Below, piece by piece: positions 17,756-55,360 of a stretch of 64,000 nt of DNA. Position 1 is the stretch's first letter. Each line of letters begins with the position of its first letter. Both the position numbers and the translations under genes were made by a program. Origin of the DNA: Octopus vulgaris (lineage: Eukaryota). The notes under the pieces were generated by a model. That model made no database searches and was not told the DNA's origin. It worked only from the letters and a program-made list of their open reading frames with translations. The stretch lies in contig OX597835.1 of the NCBI GenBank assembly GCA_951406725.2, positions 15,500,001 to 15,564,000 of the forward strand, given 5' to 3'.

Positions 17756-18371
17756 GCTAAGCCTCACTGAGGGTATGGCAAGGGACCAGGACTTATGGCG
17801 CTAAGCCTCACTGAGGGTATGGCAAGGGACCAGGACTTATGGTGCTAAGCCTCACTAAGGAGATGGCAAGGGACCAGGACTTATGGCACTAAGCCTCACT
17901 GATGAGATGGCAAGGGACCAGGACATATGGTGCTAAGCCTCACTGAGGAAATGGCAAGGGACCAGGACTTATGGCGCTAAGCCTCACTGTGGAGATGACA
18001 AGGGACCAGGACTTATGGCGTAAGCCTCACTGAGGGGATGGCAAGGGACCAGGACTTATGGTGCTAAACCTCACTGAGGGGATGGCAAGGGACCAGGACT
18101 TATGGCGCTAAGCCTCACTGAGGGGATGGCAGGGGACCGGGACTTATGGCGCTAAGCCTCACTGAGGGGATGGCAAGGGACTGGGACTTATGGCACTAAG
18201 CCTCACTGAGGGGATGGCAAGGGACCGGGACTTATGGCACTAAGCCTCACTGAGGGGGATGGCAAGGGACCGGGACTTATGGCACTAAGCCTCACTGAGG
18301 GGATGGCAAGGGACCAGGACTTATGGCACTAAGCCTCACTGAGGAGATGGCAAGGGACCAGGACTTATGGC
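17756..18371 (+). repeat. 44 bp minisatellite, 14 copies
   Basis: unit GCTAAGCCTCACTGAGGGGATGGCAAGGGACCAGGACTTATGGC. Confidence 0.95.
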
Positions 18372-18899
18372 GATTTGCTGTATTTGAGAAGACACATCAA
18401 GCTAAGAAAAATTGCAGCCCTCCATACATACAGGCATGTCCTTTATGGTCACGCCTCCACTCCCTCTCCGAGCTGAGAGGTGTTTGTCTTGCAGGGGCCA
18501 GTACCACATAAAACGCACTTGTGCCAATGCCACATAAATTGCAATTGAACCAGTGTCATGTAAAAAGCACCCAGCACATTTCGTAAAGTGGTTGGCATTA
18601 AGAAGGGCCTCCAGCCATAGAAACCTTGCCTAAACAGACAATCAGAGCCTGGACAGTGTTCCAACTGGCCAGCTCCATGCCGAACCGTCTGACCCATACA
18701 TACACACATATAAAGTGTTTGTAAAGTTATTGTGATGTTAACTTGATAAATCAGGACAGACTGACTCCTAACCAAATCTCTTACCTGTTCCTACCTCTAA
18801 TTGCATCTTCTTCATTTAAATCAATTATTGTTCGTTTATACACATCTCCTGTACAAATTATTGTTTTCTTATCTACCTGCAATGTTCTTAATTTTACAG

Positions 18900-25278: not shown

Positions 25279-27112
25279 ATGTTTGTGTGTCTGTGTTTGT
25301 CCCCCTAGCATTGCTTGACAACCGATGCTGGTGTGTTTACGTCCCCGTTACTTAGCGGTTCGGCAAAAGAGACCGATAGAATATGTACTGGGCTTACAAA
25401 AGAATAAGTCCCGGGGTCGAGTTGCTCGATTAAAGGCAGTGCTCCAGCATGGCCACAGTCAAATGACTGAAACAAGTATAAGAGTAAAGAGTAAACCCCT
25501 CTGTCTGTCTGCCTCTCTCTCTTTCTCTTATGCATGCTAGTATACAGTTGCTATGTCTTCATTTCATGTTGATCCCACCATACGTCACTTCATAAACCTT
25601 GCATTAAATCAATTATCATCATGATCCAGTGTCCGGTTTCCCATGCTTGCACGAGTCGGGCGGAATTTGTAGAGGCAGGTTTTGTTTTGGCCGGATGCCC
25701 TTGCTGTTGCTAACCCTCACCTATTTCCAAGCAAGGTAACATTTCTCTCATGGCCAAATACATCATCGCAGAATATTCGAAATAAAATAATACAGCTTGT
25801 GTGGCTGTCACACTCATTTTACTCAGTTACAACTATCACGTGATGTCAAGCCAAGAAGATACAAACATGGGCTTCATTCAGTTTCCGTTGACTGAAACAG
25901 TCACAAGGCCTTGGTCAGCCCCAGAACTATAGTAAAAGACACTTGCTCAAAGCAAAGCACCACGCAATGAGATTGAACTTGAAACCATTTAGTTGGGGGA
26001 AAAAAGCTGCTTAACCACACGGCTTATGTCAGAACCCTTGCTTGTGTCACAGCTCCTCAGCTTACTGTAGTCCAGATCATAACCCTGCAACAACAGCATA
26101 CACACACATCCAGCACAAACTTCCTGTAAAAAACATAAATCATCATTCATCATCATCATCATCGATTAACATCCTTCCATGCGAGCATGGGGTGGACAGT
26201 TCGACAGGAGCCAGCCAGGCAGAAACCTGCACCACATACTTCTGTGTCTGTTTTTGGCAGGGTTTTTATGGCTGGGTGCCCTTCCTAACACCAACCACTT
26301 TGCAGAGTGGGCTGAATGCTTTTTACATGGCGCCAGCACAGGCCAGGTCTGTTTTGGCATGGTTTTTACCATTGGATGCCCTTCCTAATGCCAACCACTT
26401 TACAGTGTGGACCAGATGCTTTTAAGTGGCACCAGCACTGGCAGGGTCACCAAATATCTTCGCAAAACAAGGAACATTTGAGAGGAGTGGAGGCATTGAA
26501 ACAAAGAGTTAATAAAAATACAAATAAGAAAATGAGATAACAAAGGAGTAAACGATTGTCTTATGAGCTAATGAAATTCATAAGATATTCATTTGGCTTA
26601 GTGGTTAGGGCATCCGGTTCACAATTGGTAAGGTCGTGAGTTCAATTCCCGGCGACGCGTTGTGTCCTTGAGCAAGACACTTTATTTCACGCTGCTCCAG
26701 TCCACTCAGCTGGCAAAAATGAATTGTACCTGTATTTCAAAGGGTCAGCCTTATCACACTCTGTGTCACGCTGAATCTCCCTGAGAACTGCGTTAGGGGT
26801 ACACATATCTATGGACTGCTCAGTCACTTGCACGTTAATTTCACGAGCAAGCTGTTCCGTTGATCATATCAGCTGGGACCCTTGTCGTCGTAACCGAAGG
26901 AGTGCTCCCTTTTTTTCCCCTTATTAAGACTTTGTTCTGAAGCCTATGTATATTTAGTTCTGCCCAAGGTTATTAGCCATGCAATGCCTAAACAAAATGT
27001 TGACATCCAAATATGTAGACATGTATATAGAGACAGAGACAGAGAAAGGTTTGTGCTGTTGTAACTGTTGTTGTCAATGGTAAATGTAACAAAACTGTTT
27101 CCACTTTTACAG

Positions 27113-27266
27113 GCAGCAAAGGATGTTTATGATATTTTACTGAAACGGTTCCGTAAAGAGAAGGATGTCTGGATTCACTTTGCCATATTTTGCTACAAAA
27201 ATGGTTTCTTGGAGCAAGGAAGGGAACTGATTGAGAAAGCTGTACAAGTCATCGACAAGAAAAATC
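27113..27266 (+). CDS. PDCD11: RRP5/PDCD11 exon 13 in window
   Basis: AAKDVYDILLKRFRKEKDVWIHFAIFCYKNGFLEQGRELIEKAVQVIDKKN; tacag|..|gtaagt; phase 0/1. Confidence 0.95.
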
Positions 27267-28051
27267 GTAAGTCTTGACATTTCAATCTCATGCATTTTTA
27301 TTTAGATACACACACACACACACATATATATATATTTCTTTACTACCCACAAGGGGCTAAACACAGAGAGGACAAACAAGGACAGACAAACGGATTAAGT
27401 CGATTATATGGACCCCAGTGCGTAACTGGTATTTAATTTATCGACCCCGAAATGATGAAAGGCAAAGTCGATCTCGGCGGAATTTGAACTCAGAACGTAA
27501 CGGCAGACGAAATACCGCTAAGTATTTCGCCCGGTGTGCTAACAATTCTGCCAGCTCGCCTCCTTCATTGATATATATATATCATTTAACATTCACTTTT
27601 CCATGTTTGCATGGGTCAGACAGAATTTATTAAGGTGGATTTTCTAGAGCTGGGTGCCTTTCCTGTCACCAACCCTCATGTGCTTCCCAGCAAGGTGATG
27701 TTTCCCAATGGCCAGGCATGCTTTACGCAACAGACTGGTTGCTCATTTACAGCTATCACACAATTTCAAGACAAGGGAAAACAAGCATATACACACCTAC
27801 ATATACACACATTCACACAATCACACGCACATGCAAATCCACTCACGAGGCTTTGACCAACCGAAGACTATATTAGAAAACACCTGCCTGCTCATTGGGA
27901 TTGAACCCAAAACTCTCCGGTTGGCAACCAAACTTCTTAACCACACAGCCACGTCTCCTTACATTCATTACAAATACAACCGACTTCACTAAAGTACTAA
28001 CAACAACTTCCACATCTCTCTTGACTATAAGATAAAAACAAAACAAGAGAT

Positions 28052-29574
28052 GCAGCACGGATTTTTGTCAGTGAACAGGTTGCGCCCTTAAAGCGACGAA
28101 AATATTTTGACAAATTAAACTTAAATGTTGAAGTGAATCGAACGGCTTTTGTGTGTTTCTTAAATGGCTTACAAACACCTTCCACGCTGCAATTGTATAT
28201 ATATATATATATATAAACCTTATTCAGCATGGATTTTTGTCAGTGAACAGGTCGTGGTCTTAAAGCAACGAAAATATTTTGACAAATTAAACTTAAATGT
28301 TGAAGTGAATCGAACGGCTTTTGTGTGTTTCTTAAATGGCTTACAAACACCTTCCACGCTGCAATTGTATATATATATATATATATATAAACCTTATTCA
28401 GCATGGATTTTTGTCAGTGAACAGGTCGTGGTCTTAAAGCGACGAAAATATTTTGACAAATTAAACTTAAATGTTGAAGTGAATCGAACGGCTTTTGTGT
28501 GTTTCTTAAATGGCTTACAAACACCTTCCACGCTGCAATTGTATATATATATATATATAAACCTTATTCAGCATGGATTTTTGTCAGTGAACAGGTCGCG
28601 GTCTTAAAGCAACAAAAATATTTTGACAAATTAAACTTAAATGTTGAAGTGAATCGAACGGCTTTTTGTGTGTTTCTTAAATGGCTTACAAACACCTTCC
28701 ACGCTGCAATTGTATATATATATATATATATAAACCTTATTCAGCATGGATTTTTGTCAGTGAACAGGTCGCGGTCTTAAAGCAACAAAAATATTTTGAC
28801 AAATTAAACTTAAATGTTGAAGTGAATCGAACGGCTTTTGTGTGTTTCTTAAATGGCTTACAAACACCTTCCACGCTGCAATTGTATATATATATATATA
28901 TATAAACCTTATTCAGCATGGATTTTTGTCAGTGAACAGGTCGTGGTCTTAAAGCGACGAAAATATTTTGACAAATTAAACTTAAATGTTGAAGTGAATC
29001 GAACGGCTTTTGTGTGTTTCTTAAATGGCTTACAAATACCTTCCACGCTGCAATTGTATATATATATATATATATAAACCTTATTCAGCATGGATTTTTG
29101 TCAGTGAACAGGTCGTGGTCTTAAAGCGACGAAAATATTTTGACAAATTAAACTTAAATGTTGAAGTGAATCGAACGGCTTTTGTGTGTTTCTTAAATGG
29201 CTTACAAACACCTTCCACGCTGCAATTGTATATATATATATATATATATAAACCTTATTCAGCATGGATTTTTGTCAGTGAACAGGTCGCGGCCTTAAAG
29301 CGACGAAAATATTTTGACAAATTAAACTTAAATGTTGAAGTGAATCGAACTGCTTTTGTGTGATTCTTAAATGGCTTACAAACACCTTCCACGCTGCAAT
29401 TGTATATATATATATATATATAAACCTTATTCAGCATGGATTTTTGTCAGTGAACAGGTCGTGGTCTTAAAGCGACGAAAATATTTTGACAAATTAAACT
29501 TAAATGTTGAAGTGAATCGAACGGCTTTTGTGTGTTTCTTAAATGGCTTACAAACACCTTCCACGCTGCAATTG
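28052..29574 (+). repeat. Nine-copy ~172 bp tandem array, each unit carrying a minimal type I hammerhead-like fold (G3-C8 core variant)
   Basis: Cores GTGAACA at 28071, 28243, 28417, 28587, 28760, 28932, 29104, 29278, 29450; units joined by variable (TA)n. Confidence 0.95.
29271..29321 (+). ncRNA. Best-formed hammerhead ribozyme candidate in the array (copy 8)
   Basis: stem I TTTGTCA/TGACAAA; core GUGAACA+G; stem II GUCGC/GCGAC; GAAA; palindromic stem III AAUAUU; predicted cut after U29314. Confidence 0.65.
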
Positions 29575-29693
29575 TTTTTGTTTCAGCACACGATCTCAGA
29601 TCAAATCACTTGCTATGCAAGTACATCTCCAAAATTTTTTTAAAATTCACTCAAACATCAAAAGAAAAAATAAAACTTTTGGTTCTTCTTCAG

Positions 29694-29859
29694 ATGTAAC
29701 ATTGGTTTCTAAAATTGCGCAGCTGGAATTTAAATACGGAGACACCCAGCGTGGTACGACGATATTTGAAAATATCATCAGTAATTACCCACGAAGAACA
29801 GACCTCTGGTCCATTTATATCGATATGGCAATGTCACTGGAGGATAAAGAACAAATCAG
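29694..29859 (+). CDS. PDCD11: RRP5/PDCD11 exon 14 in window
   Basis: HVTLVSKIAQLEFKYGDTQRGTTIFENIISNYPRRTDLWSIYIDM; ttcag|..|gtttga; phase 1/2. Confidence 0.96.
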
Positions 29860-43305: not shown

Positions 43306-43656
43306 GTTTGTCTCCTCACCATCTTTGTAACTTAGCGATTTGGCAAAAGAGGCTAATAGAATAAGTACTAGGCTTACAAAGAATAAGTCCTGGGGTCGAT
43401 TTCTTTGACTAAAAACCCTTTAACATGGTGCTCCATTATGACTGAAACAAGTAAAAGAATATTTAAAATAAGTAATCTTTAGGTAAGGGTATAATGACAA
43501 GGACATCTAGCATATATTTCTCCAACCCTTACTAGCAGGAAAAAATGGATATGAAAACAAGCAATATAAATGCACTTTTTTTTTCTTTTCTTGCAGTCAA
43601 CCAGTTTCTTGAATGTTCTATGGCTGAGCTATTTAATTTTCTTTTCTTTACAACAG

Positions 43657-43794
43657 AGAAACAAAGCCTGTGGGATGAAATAAATGAAGAAACCTTAACT
43701 TCCACTCCTCTATTCCCTTCAAATGCTTTTGAAGAAATGGCTATTTGGACGAAAGAAGGAAAATACTGGACATTCCCAATCAATAATGAAGCCG
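43657..43794 (+). CDS. MRPS31: MRPS31 exon 7
   Basis: SLWD...NAFEEMAIWTKEGKYWTFPINNEAG, conserved mS31 C-terminal domain; aacag|..|gtcagt. Confidence 0.95.
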
Positions 43795-43975
43795 GTCAGT
43801 TTAATACTCTTTTACTCTTTTACTTGTTTCAGTCATTTGACTGCGACCATGCAGGAGCACCGCCAGTACTTATTCTATCGGTCTCTTTTGCCGAACCGCT
43901 AAGTGACAGGGACGTAAACACACCAGCATCGGTTGTCAAGCAATGCTAGGGGGACAAACACAGACACAAACACAT

Positions 43976-44014
<39 letters not shown>

Positions 44015-46349
44015 CATATATACGACGGGCTTGTTTCAGTTTCCGTCTACCAAATCCACTCACAAGGCATTGGTCGGCCCAAGGCTATAGTAGAAGACAC
44101 TTGCCCAGACACTTGCATGGCTGTGTGGTAAGGAATTTGCTTCCCAGCCACATGGTTTCAGGTTCAGTCTCACTGTGTGTCACCTTGGGCAAATGTCTTC
44201 TTCTACAGCCCTGGGCTGATCAAAGCCATGTGAGTGGATTCGGTAGATGAGAACTGAAAGAAGCCTGTTGTGTGTGTGTGTGCATATGTTACTGTCCTCT
44301 TGCCTTGATGTCACACAATAGCTGTAAACAAGGCTCACCATCATCCAAGCATTGTCCTTTGTTTCCAATCTTTTGTGAAAACATATCTGGTCAACAGGGA
44401 AATATTACTATTCTTGGAAACAGATATGGGTTGGTGACAGAAAGAGCATCTGGCCACAGAAAATCCACCTCAGCAAATTCTGTCTGACCCATACCAGCAT
44501 GGAAAAGCAGACATTTAACCCTTTAGCATTCAGATTAATTTCTCAAATGCAATGCTTATTTATCTACATCTTTTAAAATTAATCTTGTAGTAATCTTGTA
44601 GCTTTGAGATTTTGAAGATCATCATCATCATCATCATCGTTTAACGTCCGCTTTCCATGCTAGCATGGGTTGGACGATTTTGACTGAGGGCTGGCAAACC
44701 AGATGGCTGCACCAGGCTCCAATCTTGATCTGGCAGGGTTTCTACTGCTGGATGCCCTTTCTAACGCCAACCACTCCGAGAGTGTAGTGGGTGCTTTTTA
44801 CGGGGCCAGTCAGGCAGTACTGGCAATGACCTCACTCAAATCTTTTTACACATGCTACCGGCACAGGTGCCAGTAAGGTGACGCTGGTAACGATCACGTT
44901 TGAACGCCGCCTTTTACGTGCCACCAGTACGGAAGCCAGTTAGCCGCTCTGGCAACGATCACGCTCAGATGGTGCTCTTGGTACCCTATTAGCACAAGCA
45001 CAAGTGCCAGCAAGGTGATACTGGTAACGATCACACTCGAATGGTGCCTTTTATGTGCCACTGGCACGGAAGCCGGTTAGCTGCTCTGTCAACGATCACA
45101 CTCGTATGGTGCTCTTTGCACCCTGCTAGCATGGATGCCAGTCATCGAATTTGATTTTGATTACACTTGCCTCAACAGGTCTTCGCAAGCAGAGTTTAGT
45201 GTCCAAAGAAGGAAAAGGTAACAGCAGTATGGAAATAGCTAGAAATGTTGAAGAAATAAACTACCTCTGTATCTAACCCCACTGAAGCATAGCTGAGCTC
45301 ATTTAGTCAACAATGACTACAACAACAATGTGCTCTTACCTACAAAGATCTAGATCAGGTTTGGACGACCTTTTCCAAGAAGCAGACCATATAAGACATG
45401 GTTCAACAAACAGGCTACACTACTGGAAAAGTCAATGAAATTATTTGTTGGGTGTACCATTTAAAAAGTCCCCTACGCCACAGTTTGCTCATTACTGATC
45501 TAGACATAACAAAACACCAGAAATATACCACCAAACATACAAATATATATATACTCGCTTGGCCTCCGTGCCAGTGGCACGTAAGAAGCACTCTCCGATC
45601 GTGGCCATTTGCCAGCCTCGCCTGGCACCTGTGCCAGTGGAACGTAAAAAGCACCCACTACACTCATGGAGTGGTTGGCGTTAGGAAGGGCATCCAGCCG
45701 TAGAAACATTGCCAGATCAGACTGGGCCTGGTGCAGCCTTCTGGCTTCCCAGACCCCAGTTGCACCGTCCAACCCATGCCAGCATGGAAAGCGGACGCTA
45801 AACGATGATGATGATATATACACAAGGAATTAAACAATAAACAAGATGAAGATGAATAAAAACAACCAGATATCAAAATGAAATGAGAATATTTAAGGTT
45901 AAATCTCCTAACTTATTGGTAAGGGTATGTTTCAAAACAATAATTATTTTGCATCATCATCATCATTATTTAATGTCTGTCTTCCATGCTGAGTTTGATA
46001 GGGGCTGGCAAGCCAGAGGACTGCACCAAACTCCAGTTTTTGCATGGTTTTTATGGCTGGATGCTCTTCCTGATACCAATGTTATGCGTTGTTTCGTTCT
46101 GATGGGTGATGGCCAACTCAATTGAAGGCATATATCGTTTTATGTGTTTATTTGCTTTGCATGTTACACCAACTGTCCGACCCTCAGCATAGTGATACTT
46201 ATATACCTTAGACACAGCGTAGTAATACTTATAAAATAGTGCCAAAAGCGGGGACGCATTCCACACACGCATGCCCACGCATACACATAGATATGAATGT
46301 GTAACAACCAACTTATTTCTTTTTAATCTATTTATTTTGTTATTTCTAG

Positions 46350-46579
46350 GCTGGGAAGAAGAAATGAACACAGGATTCCACGAACATGTCTTTCTAGAAG
46401 ATCTGATTGCTGATTTCCCCTCAAAAGGACCAATTCGTCACTTTATGGAATTAGTCATTACAGGACTTTCAATGAGCCCTTATTTAACAGTCCAACAAAA
46501 GAAGGACCATATTTCCTGGTTTAAGAATTATTTTGAAGAAAAACGACACTTACTTAAAGAGGAATTGGCTTTAAAATAA
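46350..46579 (+). CDS. MRPS31: MRPS31 terminal exon, 28S mitochondrial ribosomal protein S31
   Basis: FHEHVFLEDLIADFPSKGPIRHFMELVITGLSMSPYLTVQQKKDHISWFKNYF is diagnostic; spliced CDS totals 954 nt; AATAAA at 46655. Confidence 0.96.
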
Positions 46580-50461: not shown

Positions 50462-53321
50462 GGTACTTGTCAATTGTCGTGGTCCCGGTTTTGCACACGC
50501 GAATTCGCGCGCGCGCGCGCGCCAGACGTAGGTACTCGATACTCGAGATCCTACGAGGTGACTTGCGCATGCGCAGTGCAGAATTCGCGCGTGCGCGTTA
50601 AACCCCCCTAAAAAAAAAGGTGTTGGATTTCACTAAAAATATATATGTGTGTGTGTGTGTATATATAACATTTTCAATTTTACACAAAAAAATTACATAG
50701 TCGCTTTCCTCGCGGATTTACAGAGAAATGAATTAATTACTATTTTACAGAATAAAATTAATGAATTAATTATATAAATTAAATAATTCTTGAAAATTAA
50801 TTAATATTAATAATATTTTTTGAACAAAGTAAATAATTTATAAAACTTGGTTAATAATTTTTTTTACACAAACGCGAACGTATATAATTTGTGAAACTTT
50901 TTTTTTTTACAGACGTATATAATTTGGTAAACTTAATGAATTAATTTCTTCTCATCATCATCATCGTTTAACGTCCGTTCTCCATGCCAGCATGGGTTGG
51001 ACGGTTCGACCGGGGATCTGGGAAGCCAGAAGGCTGCACCAGACTCCAGTCTTATCTGGCAATGTTTCTACAGCTGGATGCCCTTCCTAACGCCAACCAC
51101 TCCGAGAGTGTAGTGGGTGCTTTTTACATGCCACGGTCGGATTGGTGCCAGTCGAGGCGGCTCTGGCATCGGCCACGATTCGGATAGTGCTTTTTACGTA
51201 CCACCAGTCCAGGGGTCCTGGCATTTGCCGGGTGCCACACTTGCCCCAACATGTCTTCGCAAGCAAAGGGGTTGGCATGGGTGCCTGTCGTGGGATGAGG
51301 TTCGATATCAACTTCGCTTGCCTCAACAGGTCTTTGTGTATAAATGTATAAATTTTTCGCACTAAATTCTTTCCGTAGAATTTATAAAAAAACGCGCAAA
51401 ATTATTCCGTAGACTTTATCAAATTAAAAAACGCAAAATTAATATATTTTTTGAAATTGCAAATTATTTAGAATATAAAACAAATTAAGTTAAATTTTAA
51501 AAATAAATGTCATATACTTATACTCTGTAAGGTGCTGTGTTCACACTTCAATTTACTATTTTCTAGAAATGTTGCTTTTCTAATTGAAACAATTTTTCTC
51601 AATCTCCATTTAAAAGTCCATAATGCCTCTTGAGCCATATCAAAATGAACAACTTTGAATTACCCGGTGGTGGTGTGAGGTTCTAATTTTTTTTCTGATC
51701 TCTCTTTGCCCCCTCTTTATCTCAGTTGTTCATTCAGCTAATATTTAGAAAACTTTTCGCGCCCAATTTTTGTTGTCGCGGGAAAAGATGAACGATTTAA
51801 AATAAATATATCTTAATTGTAGTGTGAGAAAGTATATATATTCTGATGACAAAATATATTATCTTTCAAAAACATCCCAAATTTATAGACTATATCGTGT
51901 AGGTTTAAGAAATATATATATATATATATATATATATAGATATAGATATATATATACATATATAGTAGAGAATGAAACATCTTTCATCTGTCTCCCCACC
52001 ACACCTCCATCTAGGGGGGCAAAGAGAGATCAGAAAAAAAATTAGAACCTCACACCACCACCACCACCACCGGGTAATTCAAAGTTGTTCATTTTGATAT
52101 GGCTCAAGAGGCATTATGGACTTTTAAATGGAGATTGAGAAAAATTGTTTCAATTAGAAAAGCAACATTTCTAGAAAATAGTAAATTGAAGTGTGAACAC
52201 AGCACCTTACAGAGTATAAGTATATGACATTTATTTTTAAAATTTAACTTAATTTGTTTTATATTCTAAATAATTTGCAATTTCAAAAAATATATTAATT
52301 TTGCGTTTTTTAATTTGATAAAGTCTACGGAATAATTTTGCGCGTTTTTTTATAAATTCTACGGAAAGAATTTAGTGCGAAAAATTTATACATTTATACA
52401 CAAAGACCTGTTGAGGCAAGCGAAGTTGATATCGAACCTCATCCCACGACAGGCACCCATGCCAACCCCCTTTGCTTGCGAAGACATGTTGGGGCAAGTG
52501 TGGCACCCGGCAAATGCCAGGACCCCTGGACTGGTGGTACGTAAAAAGCACTATCCGAATCGTGGCCGATGCCAGAGCCGCCTCGACTGGCACCAATCCG
52601 ACCGTGGCCGTTGCCAGCCTCGCCTGGCACCTGTGCGGGTGGCATGTAAAAAGCACCCACTACACTCTCGGAGTGGTTGGCGTTAGGAAGGGCATCCAGC
52701 TGTAGAAACATTGCCAGATAAGACTGGAGTCTGGTGCAGCCTTCTGGCTTCCCAGATCCCCGGTCGAACCGTCCAACCCATGCTGGCATGGAGAACGGAC
52801 GTTAAACGATGATGATGAGAAGAAATTAATTCACTAAGTTTACCAAATTATATACGTCTGTAAAAAAAAAAAAAGTTTCACAAATTATATACGTTCGCGT
52901 TTTGTGTAAAAAAAATTATTAACCAAGTTTTATAAATTATTTACTTTGTTCAAAAAATATTATTAATATTAATTAATTTTCAAGAATTATTTAATTTATA
53001 TAATTAATTCATTAATTTTATTCTGTAAAATAGTAATTAATTCATTTCTCTGTAAATCCGCGAGGAAAGCGACTATGTAATTTTTTTGTGTAAAATTGAA
53101 AATGTTATATATATACACACACACACACACACACATATATTTTTAGTGAAATCCAACACCTTTTTTTTTTAGGGGGGGGGTTTAACGCGCACGCGCGAAT
53201 TCTGCACTGCGCATGCGCAAGTCACCTCGTAGGATCTCGAGTATCGAGTACCTACGTCTGGCGCGCGCGCGCGCGCGAATTCGCGTGTGCAAAACCGGGA
53301 CCACGACAATTGACAAGTACC
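50462..53321. mobile_element. Foldback-type non-autonomous DNA transposon with ~1.25-1.3 kb terminal inverted arms
   Basis: 50462-51714 is the reverse complement of 52013-53321; termini GGTACTTGTCAATTGTCGTGG...CCACGACAATTGACAAGTACC; 9 bp flanking duplication TATATATGT (50453-50461, 53322-53330); ~300 bp non-coding spacer. Confidence 0.88.
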
Positions 53322-54474: not shown

Positions 54475-55360
54475 GTTTTTTTTTTATTAAATACTTCCCC
54501 TAAATTCTCATCAAATGTCTAATTTATTTAATTAACTTCACATTACTCTAAATCCTAATCATACAAGATCCTTATATCTCTGTTTAATTTTTGTCCAAAC
54601 CCCCTTTTTTTCTATTTATCATTCTACAGAAAGGTTTTTTCTATTAAATACATTCTCTAAATTTTCATCAAATGTCTAATTTATCTAATTAACTTAATAT
54701 TACTCCAAATCCAAATCATACAAGATCCTCATATCTATCTTGTTACTGCTTTATTTGTGTCCAAACCCTTTTTTCCCCCCTTTATCATTCTACAGAAATG
54801 TCTTTTTTATTAAATACATTCTCTAAATTTTCATCAAATGTCTAATTTATTTAATTAACTTCATATTACTCCAAATCCTAATCATATAACATCCTTAATA
54901 TCTATCTTTCTCTCTGTCTCTGTTTATTAATTTTTGTCCAAACCCCTTTTTTCCCCCCTTTATCACTCTACAGAAATGTCTTTTTTATTAAACACTTCCT
55001 CTAAATATTTATCAAATGTTTAATTTATTTAATTAACTTCATATTACTCCAAATCCAAATCATACAAGACCCTTATATTTACCTTGTCACTGTTTAATTT
55101 TTGTCCAAACCCCTTTTTTTTCTCTTTATCATTCTACAGTAAGGTTTATTTTATTAAATACATTCTCTAAATGTTCATCAAATGTCTAATTTATTTAATT
55201 AACTTAATATTACTCCAAATCCTAATCATACAAGATCCCTATACCTATCTTTCCCCCTGTCTCTGTTTATTAATTTTTGTCCAAGATCCTTATATCTATC
55301 TTGTCACTGTTTAATTTTTATCCAAACCCCTTTTTTTTCCCTCTTTATCCATTCTACAGA
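54475..55360 (+). repeat. ~160-180 bp imperfect tandem repeat, about 5 copies, in UBR4 intron 1
   Basis: recurring TATTAAATACATTCTCTAAATTTTCATCAAATGTCTAATTTA ... GTCCAAACCCCTTTTT...ATTCTACAG. Confidence 0.85.

What the first reader, a model, noticed from the sequence alone, without database searches (positions are those of the whole stretch)
28052..29574. Nine tandem hammerhead-ribozyme-like units with a swapped G3-C8 core, sense-oriented inside an RRP5 intron (retrozyme-like array)
Seen: each ~172 bp unit reads TTTGTCA-GTGAACA-G-GTCGY-(9 nt)-GCGAC-GAAA-ATAT-TT-TGACAAA. This gives a 7 bp stem I, a 5 bp stem II, GAAA, a palindromic mini stem III (AAUAUU) and an NUH site. The core is GUGAACA rather than CUGANGA, so C3 and G8 are both changed, to G3 and C8. 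Established: positions 3 and 8 form a Watson-Crick pair in the active hammerhead, and the compensatory swap can rescue activity. Minimal type I hammerheads with palindromic stem III occur in Penelope-like elements and in tandem metazoan retrozymes, and work best as dimers, which a tandem array permits in cis. Inference: this could be a self-cleaving repeat that consensus CUGANGA searches miss, able to release ~172 nt monomers or circles from RRP5 pre-mRNA. It ends 120 nt before the next acceptor (29694).
Basis: partly seen in the sequence, partly recalled or inferred. Interest (0 to 1): 0.9.

Follow-up and report, generated by a model that had tools for sequence, protein, structure and literature searches.

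The report
Swapped-core hammerhead in Penelope retroelement tips
Nine stacked copies of the end piece of a common jumping gene sit in an intron of the RRP5 gene; each carries a hammerhead-type RNA motif in which two paired core letters are swapped, a form found about 7,200 times in this genome that standard searches would miss and that likely, but untested, still cuts itself weakly.

Summary
The array is real: 9 units in an RRP5 intron, sense strand. It is the 3' tip of the pseudo-LTR of a Neptune/Nematis-type Penelope-like retroelement (PLE). Longer copies lead into an RT + GIY-YIG ORF, 53 of 105 sampled insertions are head-to-head inverted, and the array ends in the first 29 codons of that ORF (full extent 28048-29630). 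The motif is that family's minimal type I hammerhead. G3-C8 is fixed (7,164 of 7,867 genomic matches; C3-G8: 1). At the same pLTR position four related families carry C3-G8 (three) or U3-A8 (one), with covarying stems. The swap is therefore a natural compensatory variant, which I did not find reported in the searched literature; this scan noted similar cores in two other genomes. Cleavage is unshown. Genomic 5' ends do not pile up at the cut site, the active dimer is not the favoured predicted fold, and copies 4-5 lack G12. The retrozyme/circle reading is weak: 24 of 26 linker-bearing arrays carry contiguous sequence that is absent from a 172-nt circle. RRP5 splices across this intron.

The parts
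28048..29630 (+). Whole PLE-derived insertion: 9 tandem pLTR-tip units plus terminal tail
   Evidence: it starts at the family's modal 5' end (AGATG) and ends at the family's long 3' end (CATCTCC)
28047..28062 (+). 5' start of unit 1 (AGATGCAGCAC preceded by one G). It is not part of the 172-nt repeat. Inferred to be either a transcription start (cap-derived G) or a splice-acceptor boundary
   Evidence: 69 of 160 pieces start at element positions 1-4; 748 copies extend upstream through CTAAC..TTTCTYAG; G precedes AGATG in 15 of 28 non-extended copies
28064..28114 (+). Hammerhead motif, copy 1 (G3 28071, C8 28076; stem II with a U-G wobble; predicted cut after 28107)
28236..28286 (+). Hammerhead motif, copy 2 (C-A mismatch in stem II)
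28410..28460 (+). Hammerhead motif, copy 3 (intact)
28580..28630 (+). Hammerhead motif, copy 4 (G12A and stem II mismatch; predicted inactive)
28753..28803 (+). Hammerhead motif, copy 5 (G12A and stem II mismatch; predicted inactive)
28925..28975 (+). Hammerhead motif, copy 6 (intact)
29097..29147 (+). Hammerhead motif, copy 7 (intact)
29271..29321 (+). Hammerhead motif, copy 8 (fully paired stem II; G3 29278, C8 29283; predicted cut after 29314)
29443..29493 (+). Hammerhead motif, copy 9 (intact; predicted cut after 29486)
29403..29431 (+). Example inter-unit linker: (TA)n plus a fixed 10-nt piece; 8 such linkers in the array; marks a mobile tandem subfamily
   Evidence: 81 exact junction matches on 4 contigs; loci compared
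29543..29629 (+). First 29 codons of the PLE ORF (MAYKHLP...QVHL)
   Evidence: in full-length locus L232 the same start reads on for 130 codons; aligns to the sister-family N-terminus, 0 of 2000 shuffles score as high
29575..29630 (+). Optional PLE 'tail' between the two 3' end sites; present only after the last unit
   Evidence: 3' ends at 146-152 (58 of 160) and 203-208 (88 of 160); tail on exactly one arm in 51 of 53 inverted insertions
27065..27274 (+). Open frame holding the upstream RRP5 exon
   Evidence: a contig in run X4 joins its end to 29694 (loose-end table)
29694..29859 (+). Downstream RRP5 (HAT-repeat) exon

Best explanation
The array is nine tandem copies of the 3' tip of the pseudo-LTR of a Neptune/Nematis-type Penelope-like retroelement, inserted in an RRP5 intron, and the motif in each unit is that family's own minimal type I hammerhead with a natural compensatory G3-C8 swap, likely still able to cut weakly as a dimer (untested). 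Shown: identity with the pLTR tip and ORF start, PLE insertion hallmarks, a fixed G3-C8 core, and covariation across families. Inferred: the PLE protein copied a linear, uncleaved RNA that already held two or more units joined by a (TA)n linker, starting at the tail site and running to the element's usual 5' boundary. DNA-level duplication then likely raised the count to nine, since neighbouring copies 4 and 5 share private defects. Inferred: in the autonomous element the swap keeps the 3-8 Watson-Crick pair, so the ribozyme likely works like other PLE hammerheads: slow, dimer-dependent and possibly protein-assisted. At RRP5 the array is likely a passenger that is spliced out.
For: [quoted passage not shown] L232 reads pLTR-ORF-pLTR with the same motif in both repeats, 4,261 bp apart. 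In long copies L221, L231 and L232 a relaxed scan finds this motif and no other hammerhead. G3-C8 is in 7,164 of 7,867 matches and C3-G8 in 1. At the same place, sister family B (3,466 matches) and metagenome relatives L246 and L248 have C3-G8 and L245 has U3-A8. All five families share the bulged G, G10.1-C11.1 and a self-complementary stem III; stem sequences differ but stay paired. Among 103 copies chosen by a pattern outside the motif, alleles at 10% or more occur in 5 of 9 loop II columns and 0 of 11 core columns; the common stem I change gives a U-G wobble. 53 of 105 insertions are inverted and 51 of those 53 have the tail on one arm. Literature: the min-HHR consensus has an extra nucleotide after position 9, a palindromic stem III and often U17 (PMC4209133 text and Fig. 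S3). C3G/G8C partially rescues a PLE hammerhead, which cleaved only with PLE protein (PMC11167929).
Against: No cleavage data. Only 1 of 37 truncated copies in the unbiased subset begins within 2 nt of the cut site, so cleavage leaves no genomic mark. The constrained dimer fold costs 10-15 kcal/mol against the free ensemble. Family B mostly carries C9 instead of A9 (only 4 of the first 100 listed have canonical A9), and L245 has C9 too. These ribozymes tolerate core drift and may be weakly selected or inactive. Only five families were compared. L248 was read by eye after my scan missed it, and three other relatives with 3' flank (L247, L250, L254) gave no sense-strand motif. Clade assignment rests on motifs, not a tree. 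Units within a locus are more alike than units between loci (3.8 vs 6.7 differences), which fits DNA homogenisation but also rolling-circle copying.
Confidence: 0.78

Rival explanations
1. Nascent non-LTR retrozyme: tandem units self-cleave, release 172-nt monomers that circularise, and rolling-circle reverse transcription by the PLE protein builds the arrays.
For: A linker-bearing tandem form has moved as such: 81 junctions on 4 contigs, with arrays of 2 to about 30 units. Unit size fits the 170-400 nt of metazoan retrozymes (PMC7229834). Units share locus-private variants. A 2026 preprint derives animal retrozymes from pLTRs.
Against: 24 of 26 linker-bearing arrays or arms examined carry, contiguous with the tandem, the 5' start (15) or the tail (15), neither of which lies in a 172-nt circle. 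The window's array has both. The ribozyme is minimal, not the canonical retrozyme type. In the preprint 8 of 9 tested retrozyme dimers did not cleave. No circle data.
Confidence: 0.13
2. Vestigial hammerhead: the motif descends from a PLE hammerhead but no longer cleaves. The fold is kept for another reason (RNP assembly, promoter, splicing), or G3-C8 rose with a successful master element without selection for cutting.
For: Ribozyme mutants did not affect PLE insertion in vitro, and no reads ended at the cut site (PMC11167929). No 5' ends pile up at the cut site here. A9C is common in family B. The dimer fold is disfavoured.
Against: A double change that keeps the 3-8 pair, seen twice (G-C and U-A), with an otherwise fixed core and a freely varying loop II, is what selection on the catalytic fold predicts. 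The 3-8 pair matters only in the active tertiary fold.
Confidence: 0.3
3. The array regulates RRP5 by cutting its pre-mRNA shortly before the acceptor.
For: Sense orientation; the element ends about 63 nt from the acceptor; six intact motifs lie in cis.
Against: It is one of about 8,000 dispersed copies on both strands. Copies 2, 4 and 5 have decayed. Spliced RRP5 contigs are present in 4 of 4 laid runs, and one shows the join across this intron; those animals may lack the insertion.
Confidence: 0.04
4. Chance look-alike in an AT-rich satellite or MITE.
For: No Rfam hit. A relaxed descriptor does give stray hits elsewhere.
Against: The position and structure are homologous to textbook C3-G8 hammerheads in related PLEs, and the unit is physically linked to RT-EN ORFs.
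Confidence: 0.03

Closest known systems
Minimal type I hammerheads (min-HHR) of metazoan Penelope-like elements (Cervera & de la Pena 2014, PMC4209133)
   Same: Sits in the pLTR; extra nucleotide between 9 and 10.1; G10.1-C11.1; tiny palindromic stem III; U17; mostly dispersed solo or inverted copies; expected to need dimers.
   Different: Core pair is G3-C8. The representative rows of Fig. S3 that I read start CUGA or UUGA, none GUGA. The bulge is G where the consensus says H; stem I is longer (7 bp).
Natural U3-A8 hammerhead covariants (Perreault 2011, PMC3088659; Schistosoma Cercyon PLEs, PMC4209133)
   Same: Natural compensatory change at the 3-8 tertiary pair.
   Different: Purine-pyrimidine inversion (G-C), which I found in the searched papers only as an engineered double mutant.
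Engineered C3G/G8C double mutant, including the Anolis Poseidon PLE hammerhead (Frangieh 2024, PMC11167929)
   Same: Identical core swap; the same paper explains the two 3' ends (tail) as two internal RT start sites.
   Different: Here the swap is the wild-type state of a young family with about 7,200 motif copies.
Neptune/Nematis-clade EN+ PLEs (Craig 2021, PMC8557442)
   Same: RT then CX2-5CxxC linker then C-terminal GIY-YIG; partial tandems, inverted 5' copies, one-sided tail; many copies abut (TA)n.
   Different: Tail is about 57 nt rather than 30-40; clade not fixed by a tree; non-canonical ribozyme core.
Metazoan non-LTR retrozymes (Cervera & de la Pena 2020, PMC7229834; Li et al. 2026 preprint 10.64898/2026.07.22.740005)
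   Same: Tandem units of about 170 nt, each with a type I hammerhead; pLTR-derived according to the preprint.
   Different: Minimal rather than canonical hammerhead; over 98% of copies are not in linker arrays (81 junctions vs 7,867 motifs); array ends come from a linear template; no RNA circles shown.

Membership tests
EN+ Penelope-like element (Neptune/Nematis type) | Single ORF with PLE-type RT and C-terminal GIY-YIG endonuclease linked to the repeat | tested here: met
   (in other genomic copies; the window holds only the first 29 codons)
EN+ Penelope-like element (Neptune/Nematis type) | CX2-5CxxC linker and two Cys between GIY and YIG plus two His (CCHH) | tested here: met
   CQSNCAVC linker; VYQIKC..C..YIG; HL..HA in P0001; motif definitions
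EN+ Penelope-like element (Neptune/Nematis type) | pLTR partial tandems, inverted 5'-truncated copy, optional one-sided tail | tested here: met
   53 of 105 insertions inverted; 51 of 53 with one tailed arm; L232 tandem
EN+ Penelope-like element (Neptune/Nematis type) | Placement in the Neptune versus Nematis clade on an RT tree | not tested
   no named reference PLE sequences were held
PLE minimal type I hammerhead | Located in the pLTR just upstream of the ORF start | tested here: met
   cut site 56 nt before the ATG; 42-102 nt in four relatives
PLE minimal type I hammerhead | Core CUGANGA literally | tested here: not met
   GUGAACA in 9 of 9 window copies; G3-C8 in 7,164 of 7,867 genomic matches
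PLE minimal type I hammerhead | Watson-Crick pair between positions 3 and 8; U4 G5 A6, A9, G12 A13 A14, A15.1-U16.1, H17 | tested here: met
   G12 lost in window copies 4 and 5
PLE minimal type I hammerhead | Extra nucleotide after 9, G10.1-C11.1, palindromic stem III, covarying stems | tested here: met
   five families
PLE minimal type I hammerhead | Site-specific self-cleavage, as dimer | not testable with these tools
   indirect tests negative or neutral:
Non-LTR retrozyme | Tandem 170-400 bp units each with a type I hammerhead | tested here: met
   (6 of 9 intact)
Non-LTR retrozyme | Propagation through a monomeric circular RNA (arrays contain unit sequence only) | tested here: not met
   24 of 26 linker-bearing arrays or arms have contiguous non-unit 5' start or tail
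Non-LTR retrozyme | Abundant linear and circular monomer RNA | not testable with these tools
   only contigs were served, no raw reads

The most novel reading that the evidence does not exclude
A retrozyme caught being born: a young Penelope-like family whose hammerhead runs on an inverted G3-C8 core has spun off a tandem pLTR-tip subfamily that transposes as multimers, cleaves in cis as dimers with help from the PLE protein, and releases 172-nt circles, here from RRP5 pre-mRNA. G3-C8 would mark a hidden class of natural hammerheads, possibly including some PLE families now listed as lacking one.
Probability: 0.15. Interest if true: 0.72.

Novelty: new variant of a known kind. Interest (0 to 1): 0.45.

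Why it matters
Hammerhead censuses use CUGANGA, or UUGANAA. A wild-type G3-C8 core fixed in thousands of copies of a young retroelement, with C3-G8 and U3-A8 relatives at the same position, is natural covariation at the tertiary 3-8 pair. It suggests the active fold is selected in PLEs although cleavage was dispensable in vitro. It also means descriptor searches undercount PLE ribozymes. The linker subfamily gives a concrete case for testing how pLTR tips become tandem retrozyme-like arrays. For RRP5 itself the insertion looks ordinary.

Tried and rejected
Rfam at E up to 10: no hammerhead family. DNA search of the genome with the tail returned nothing because common words are skipped; exact patterns were used instead. 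A family search with a recalled Pfam accession failed. RNA evidence: no RNA holder listed as such and no raw reads. The laid contigs hold hundreds of family pieces but cannot show strand, ends, circles or locus of origin, so they are not used for or against cleavage. MITE or DNA transposon: the short inverted match between TGCAGCAC and GCTGCA was dropped once the RT-EN link, tails and inverted 5' copies appeared. Naiad: rejected, since the endonuclease is C-terminal. 5' ends at the cut site, suggested by single loci (L018, L105): not enriched, 2 of 64 and 1 of 37. Target-site duplication at the window array: none evident, though some other copies show 9-12 bp repeats (by eye). An older C3-G8 subfamily of the same family: only 1 match, not inspected. 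Papers not held: Lunse 2017 and two PMC ids recalled for Hammann 2012 and Seehafer 2011. File 1 of the PMC4209133 supplement and part 3 of file 2 were not read. Any of these could list a natural G3-C8.

Full report
Observation. The array is real: 8.8 units of 172 bp at 28053-29575 with 97% matches and nine GTGAACA cores. Six motifs are intact (copies 1, 3, 6, 7, 8, 9). Copy 2 has a C-A mismatch in stem II; copies 4 and 5 have that mismatch and G12A. The host gene is RRP5 on the + strand. The exon after the array matches RRP5 structures at E 8e-14. Contigs in 4 of 4 laid runs cover it from 29694 and join it to the next exon over a GT..AG intron, and one contig shows the upstream exon joined at 29694, across the array's intron. 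Rfam gives no hammerhead match. The genome (G000, 2.8 Gb) is probably an octopus: a protein 55% identical to the element's ORF is labelled Octopus vulgaris, and the window's other repeats look octopus-like from recall.

The unit is a dispersed element. A core pattern with positions 3, 7 and 8 free has 7,867 matches against 2 for the reversed control; a pattern in the 3' part has 8,405. I mapped 160 pieces from 120 fetched loci of the first 36 Mb of contig C1 to a natural 208-bp copy. 69 of 160 start at positions 1-4. 3' ends fall at 146-152 (58) or 203-208 (88). The pieces group into 105 insertions; 53 are head-to-head inverted, and 51 of those 53 carry the 57-nt extension on exactly one arm. 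Many abut (TA)n. These are the PLE hallmarks described by Craig 2021 (passages). Frangieh 2024 (parts 1-2 of the text) explains the tail as the stretch between two internal RT start sites.

The autonomous parent. 748 copies extend upstream. [quoted passage not shown] 42 of 150 scored copies are 100% identical over the last 132 residues, so the family is young. Locus L232 reads pLTR-ORF-pLTR with the same motif twice, and its ORF begins MAYKHLP..., the peptide encoded at window 29543-29629. The unit is thus the 3' tip of the pLTR plus the ORF start.

Is the motif a hammerhead? In long copies L221, L231 and L232 it is the only minimal-hammerhead match per repeat. G3-C8 is fixed: 7,164 of 7,867 matches; C3-G8 has 1. 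A sister family B (58-59% RT identity, intact 1,312-residue frames) has at the same place a C3-G8 motif (3,466 matches). Most listed B copies have C9; 4 of 100 have canonical CUGAUGA, and the one read has C17. Of 19 related metagenome loci, six had flank 3' of the endonuclease that I printed. L246 has C3-G8, L245 has U3-A8, L248 has C3-G8 with U15.1-A16.1 (read by eye; the scan missed it), and L247, L250 and L254 gave no sense-strand motif. Side by side, all five families share the bulged G, G10.1-C11.1, GAA, a self-complementary stem III and H17. Stems differ in sequence but stay paired, and 3-8 is always Watson-Crick: C-G three times, U-A once, G-C once. The cut site lies 42-102 nt before the ATG in all five. 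Within the family, among 103 copies selected by a pattern outside the motif, common second alleles occur in 5 of 9 loop II columns, 0 of 11 core columns and 2 of 28 stem columns; one of these is an A-to-G change giving a U-G wobble. The motif matches the min-HHR consensus of Cervera and de la Pena 2014 (text parts 1-2, supplement file 2 parts 1-2) except at 3/8 and the bulge letter.

Does it cut? Not shown. For: the same double mutation partially rescues a PLE hammerhead, and covariation points to selection on the active fold. Against: 5' ends are not enriched at the cut site (2 of 64; 1 of 37 in the unbiased subset). The catalytic dimer fold costs 10-15 kcal/mol and the monomer fold 6-12 against the free ensemble. 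Published min-HHRs cleave poorly even as dimers. The Anolis ribozyme needed PLE protein and was dispensable for insertion. Eight of nine Xenopus retrozyme dimers did not cleave. I put weak activity at about even odds or slightly better.

How the array arose. The (TA)n plus 10-nt linker occurs 81 times on 4 contigs, mostly C28 and one long array on C2, at loci with different flanks. The tandem form was therefore itself mobilised. Of 26 linker-bearing arrays or arms examined (three are one triplicated locus), 15 have the element's 5' start and 15 the tail. 24 have at least one of these contiguous with the tandem; the other two have a tail only on an inverted arm. Neither end lies within a 172-nt circle, so the templates were most likely linear, uncleaved multimers. 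Shared defects in adjacent copies 4 and 5, and block repeats of variants in the C2 array, point to later DNA duplication. Units are more alike within than between loci (3.8 vs 6.7 differences over 17 arrays), which fits homogenisation but does not exclude rolling-circle copying. The sharp 5' boundary is unresolved. It looks like a splice acceptor (branch-like CTAAC, pyrimidines, YAG; in D. virilis the intron ends at helix I). An untemplated G precedes it in 15 of 28 copies (four may be junction microhomology and two are a duplicate pair), which would fit a capped start or a short first exon.

Novelty. Natural U3-A8 is known (Perreault 2011, section read). G3-C8 appears as an engineered change in the papers I could see. 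Searches listed no paper that, on the listing or passages read, reports natural G3-C8. The representative rows of Fig. S3 have none. Lunse 2017 and two survey papers were not held, so absence from print is not established. A repeat-annotation paper for Octopus vulgaris has no occurrence of 'hammerhead' or 'ribozyme' (passages). This scan has two unchecked notes of G3-C8 cores behind PLE RTs in other genomes.

Verdict. A new variant of a known kind: a well-supported natural G3-C8 PLE hammerhead, in an otherwise ordinary PLE-tip array inside an intron. The retrozyme and RRP5-regulation readings are possible but not favoured.

Noticed in passing
L222:1642-5577 and other hits: Sister PLE family B is very young: many intact frames of 1,310-1,312 residues with a long Asn-rich insert. 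Its hammerhead has C instead of the conserved A9 in most listed copies; a minority keeps A9.
   Followed up: partly
L245:2497 and L248 3' flank: Related PLEs in metagenome contigs carry other core variants: U3-A8 with C9, and U15.1-A16.1 with a TAGCTA palindrome.
   Followed up: partly
G000:C28 0.3-25 Mb; G000:C2:17908238-17913028: The linker-bearing tandem subfamily clusters on contig C28 (about 20 loci), which suggests a source there or local hopping; C2 holds an array of about 30 units.
   Followed up: partly
L018: A different tandem made of the 3' part of the element, whose unit starts about at the predicted cut site after a (TA)n run; a single case.
   Followed up: no
L079, L046, L114, L115, L118, L119, L122: The same inverted-pair junction and flanks recur at 7 loci on C1, so this insertion was re-amplified inside another repeat.
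   Followed up: no
window 43536-43946 and 46235-46576, + strand: Exon-like frames of a second gene downstream of RRP5; from recall they resemble mitochondrial ribosomal protein S31. Not tested.
   Followed up: no
window 17756-18372; 54480-55251; 51371-52366: Other repeats: a 44-bp x14 array, a 166-bp x4.6 AT-rich array, and an inverted duplication around 51.4-52.4 kb.
   Followed up: no
L172 and L186: Fragments of other GIY-YIG-type PLE families lie next to copies of this family.
   Followed up: no
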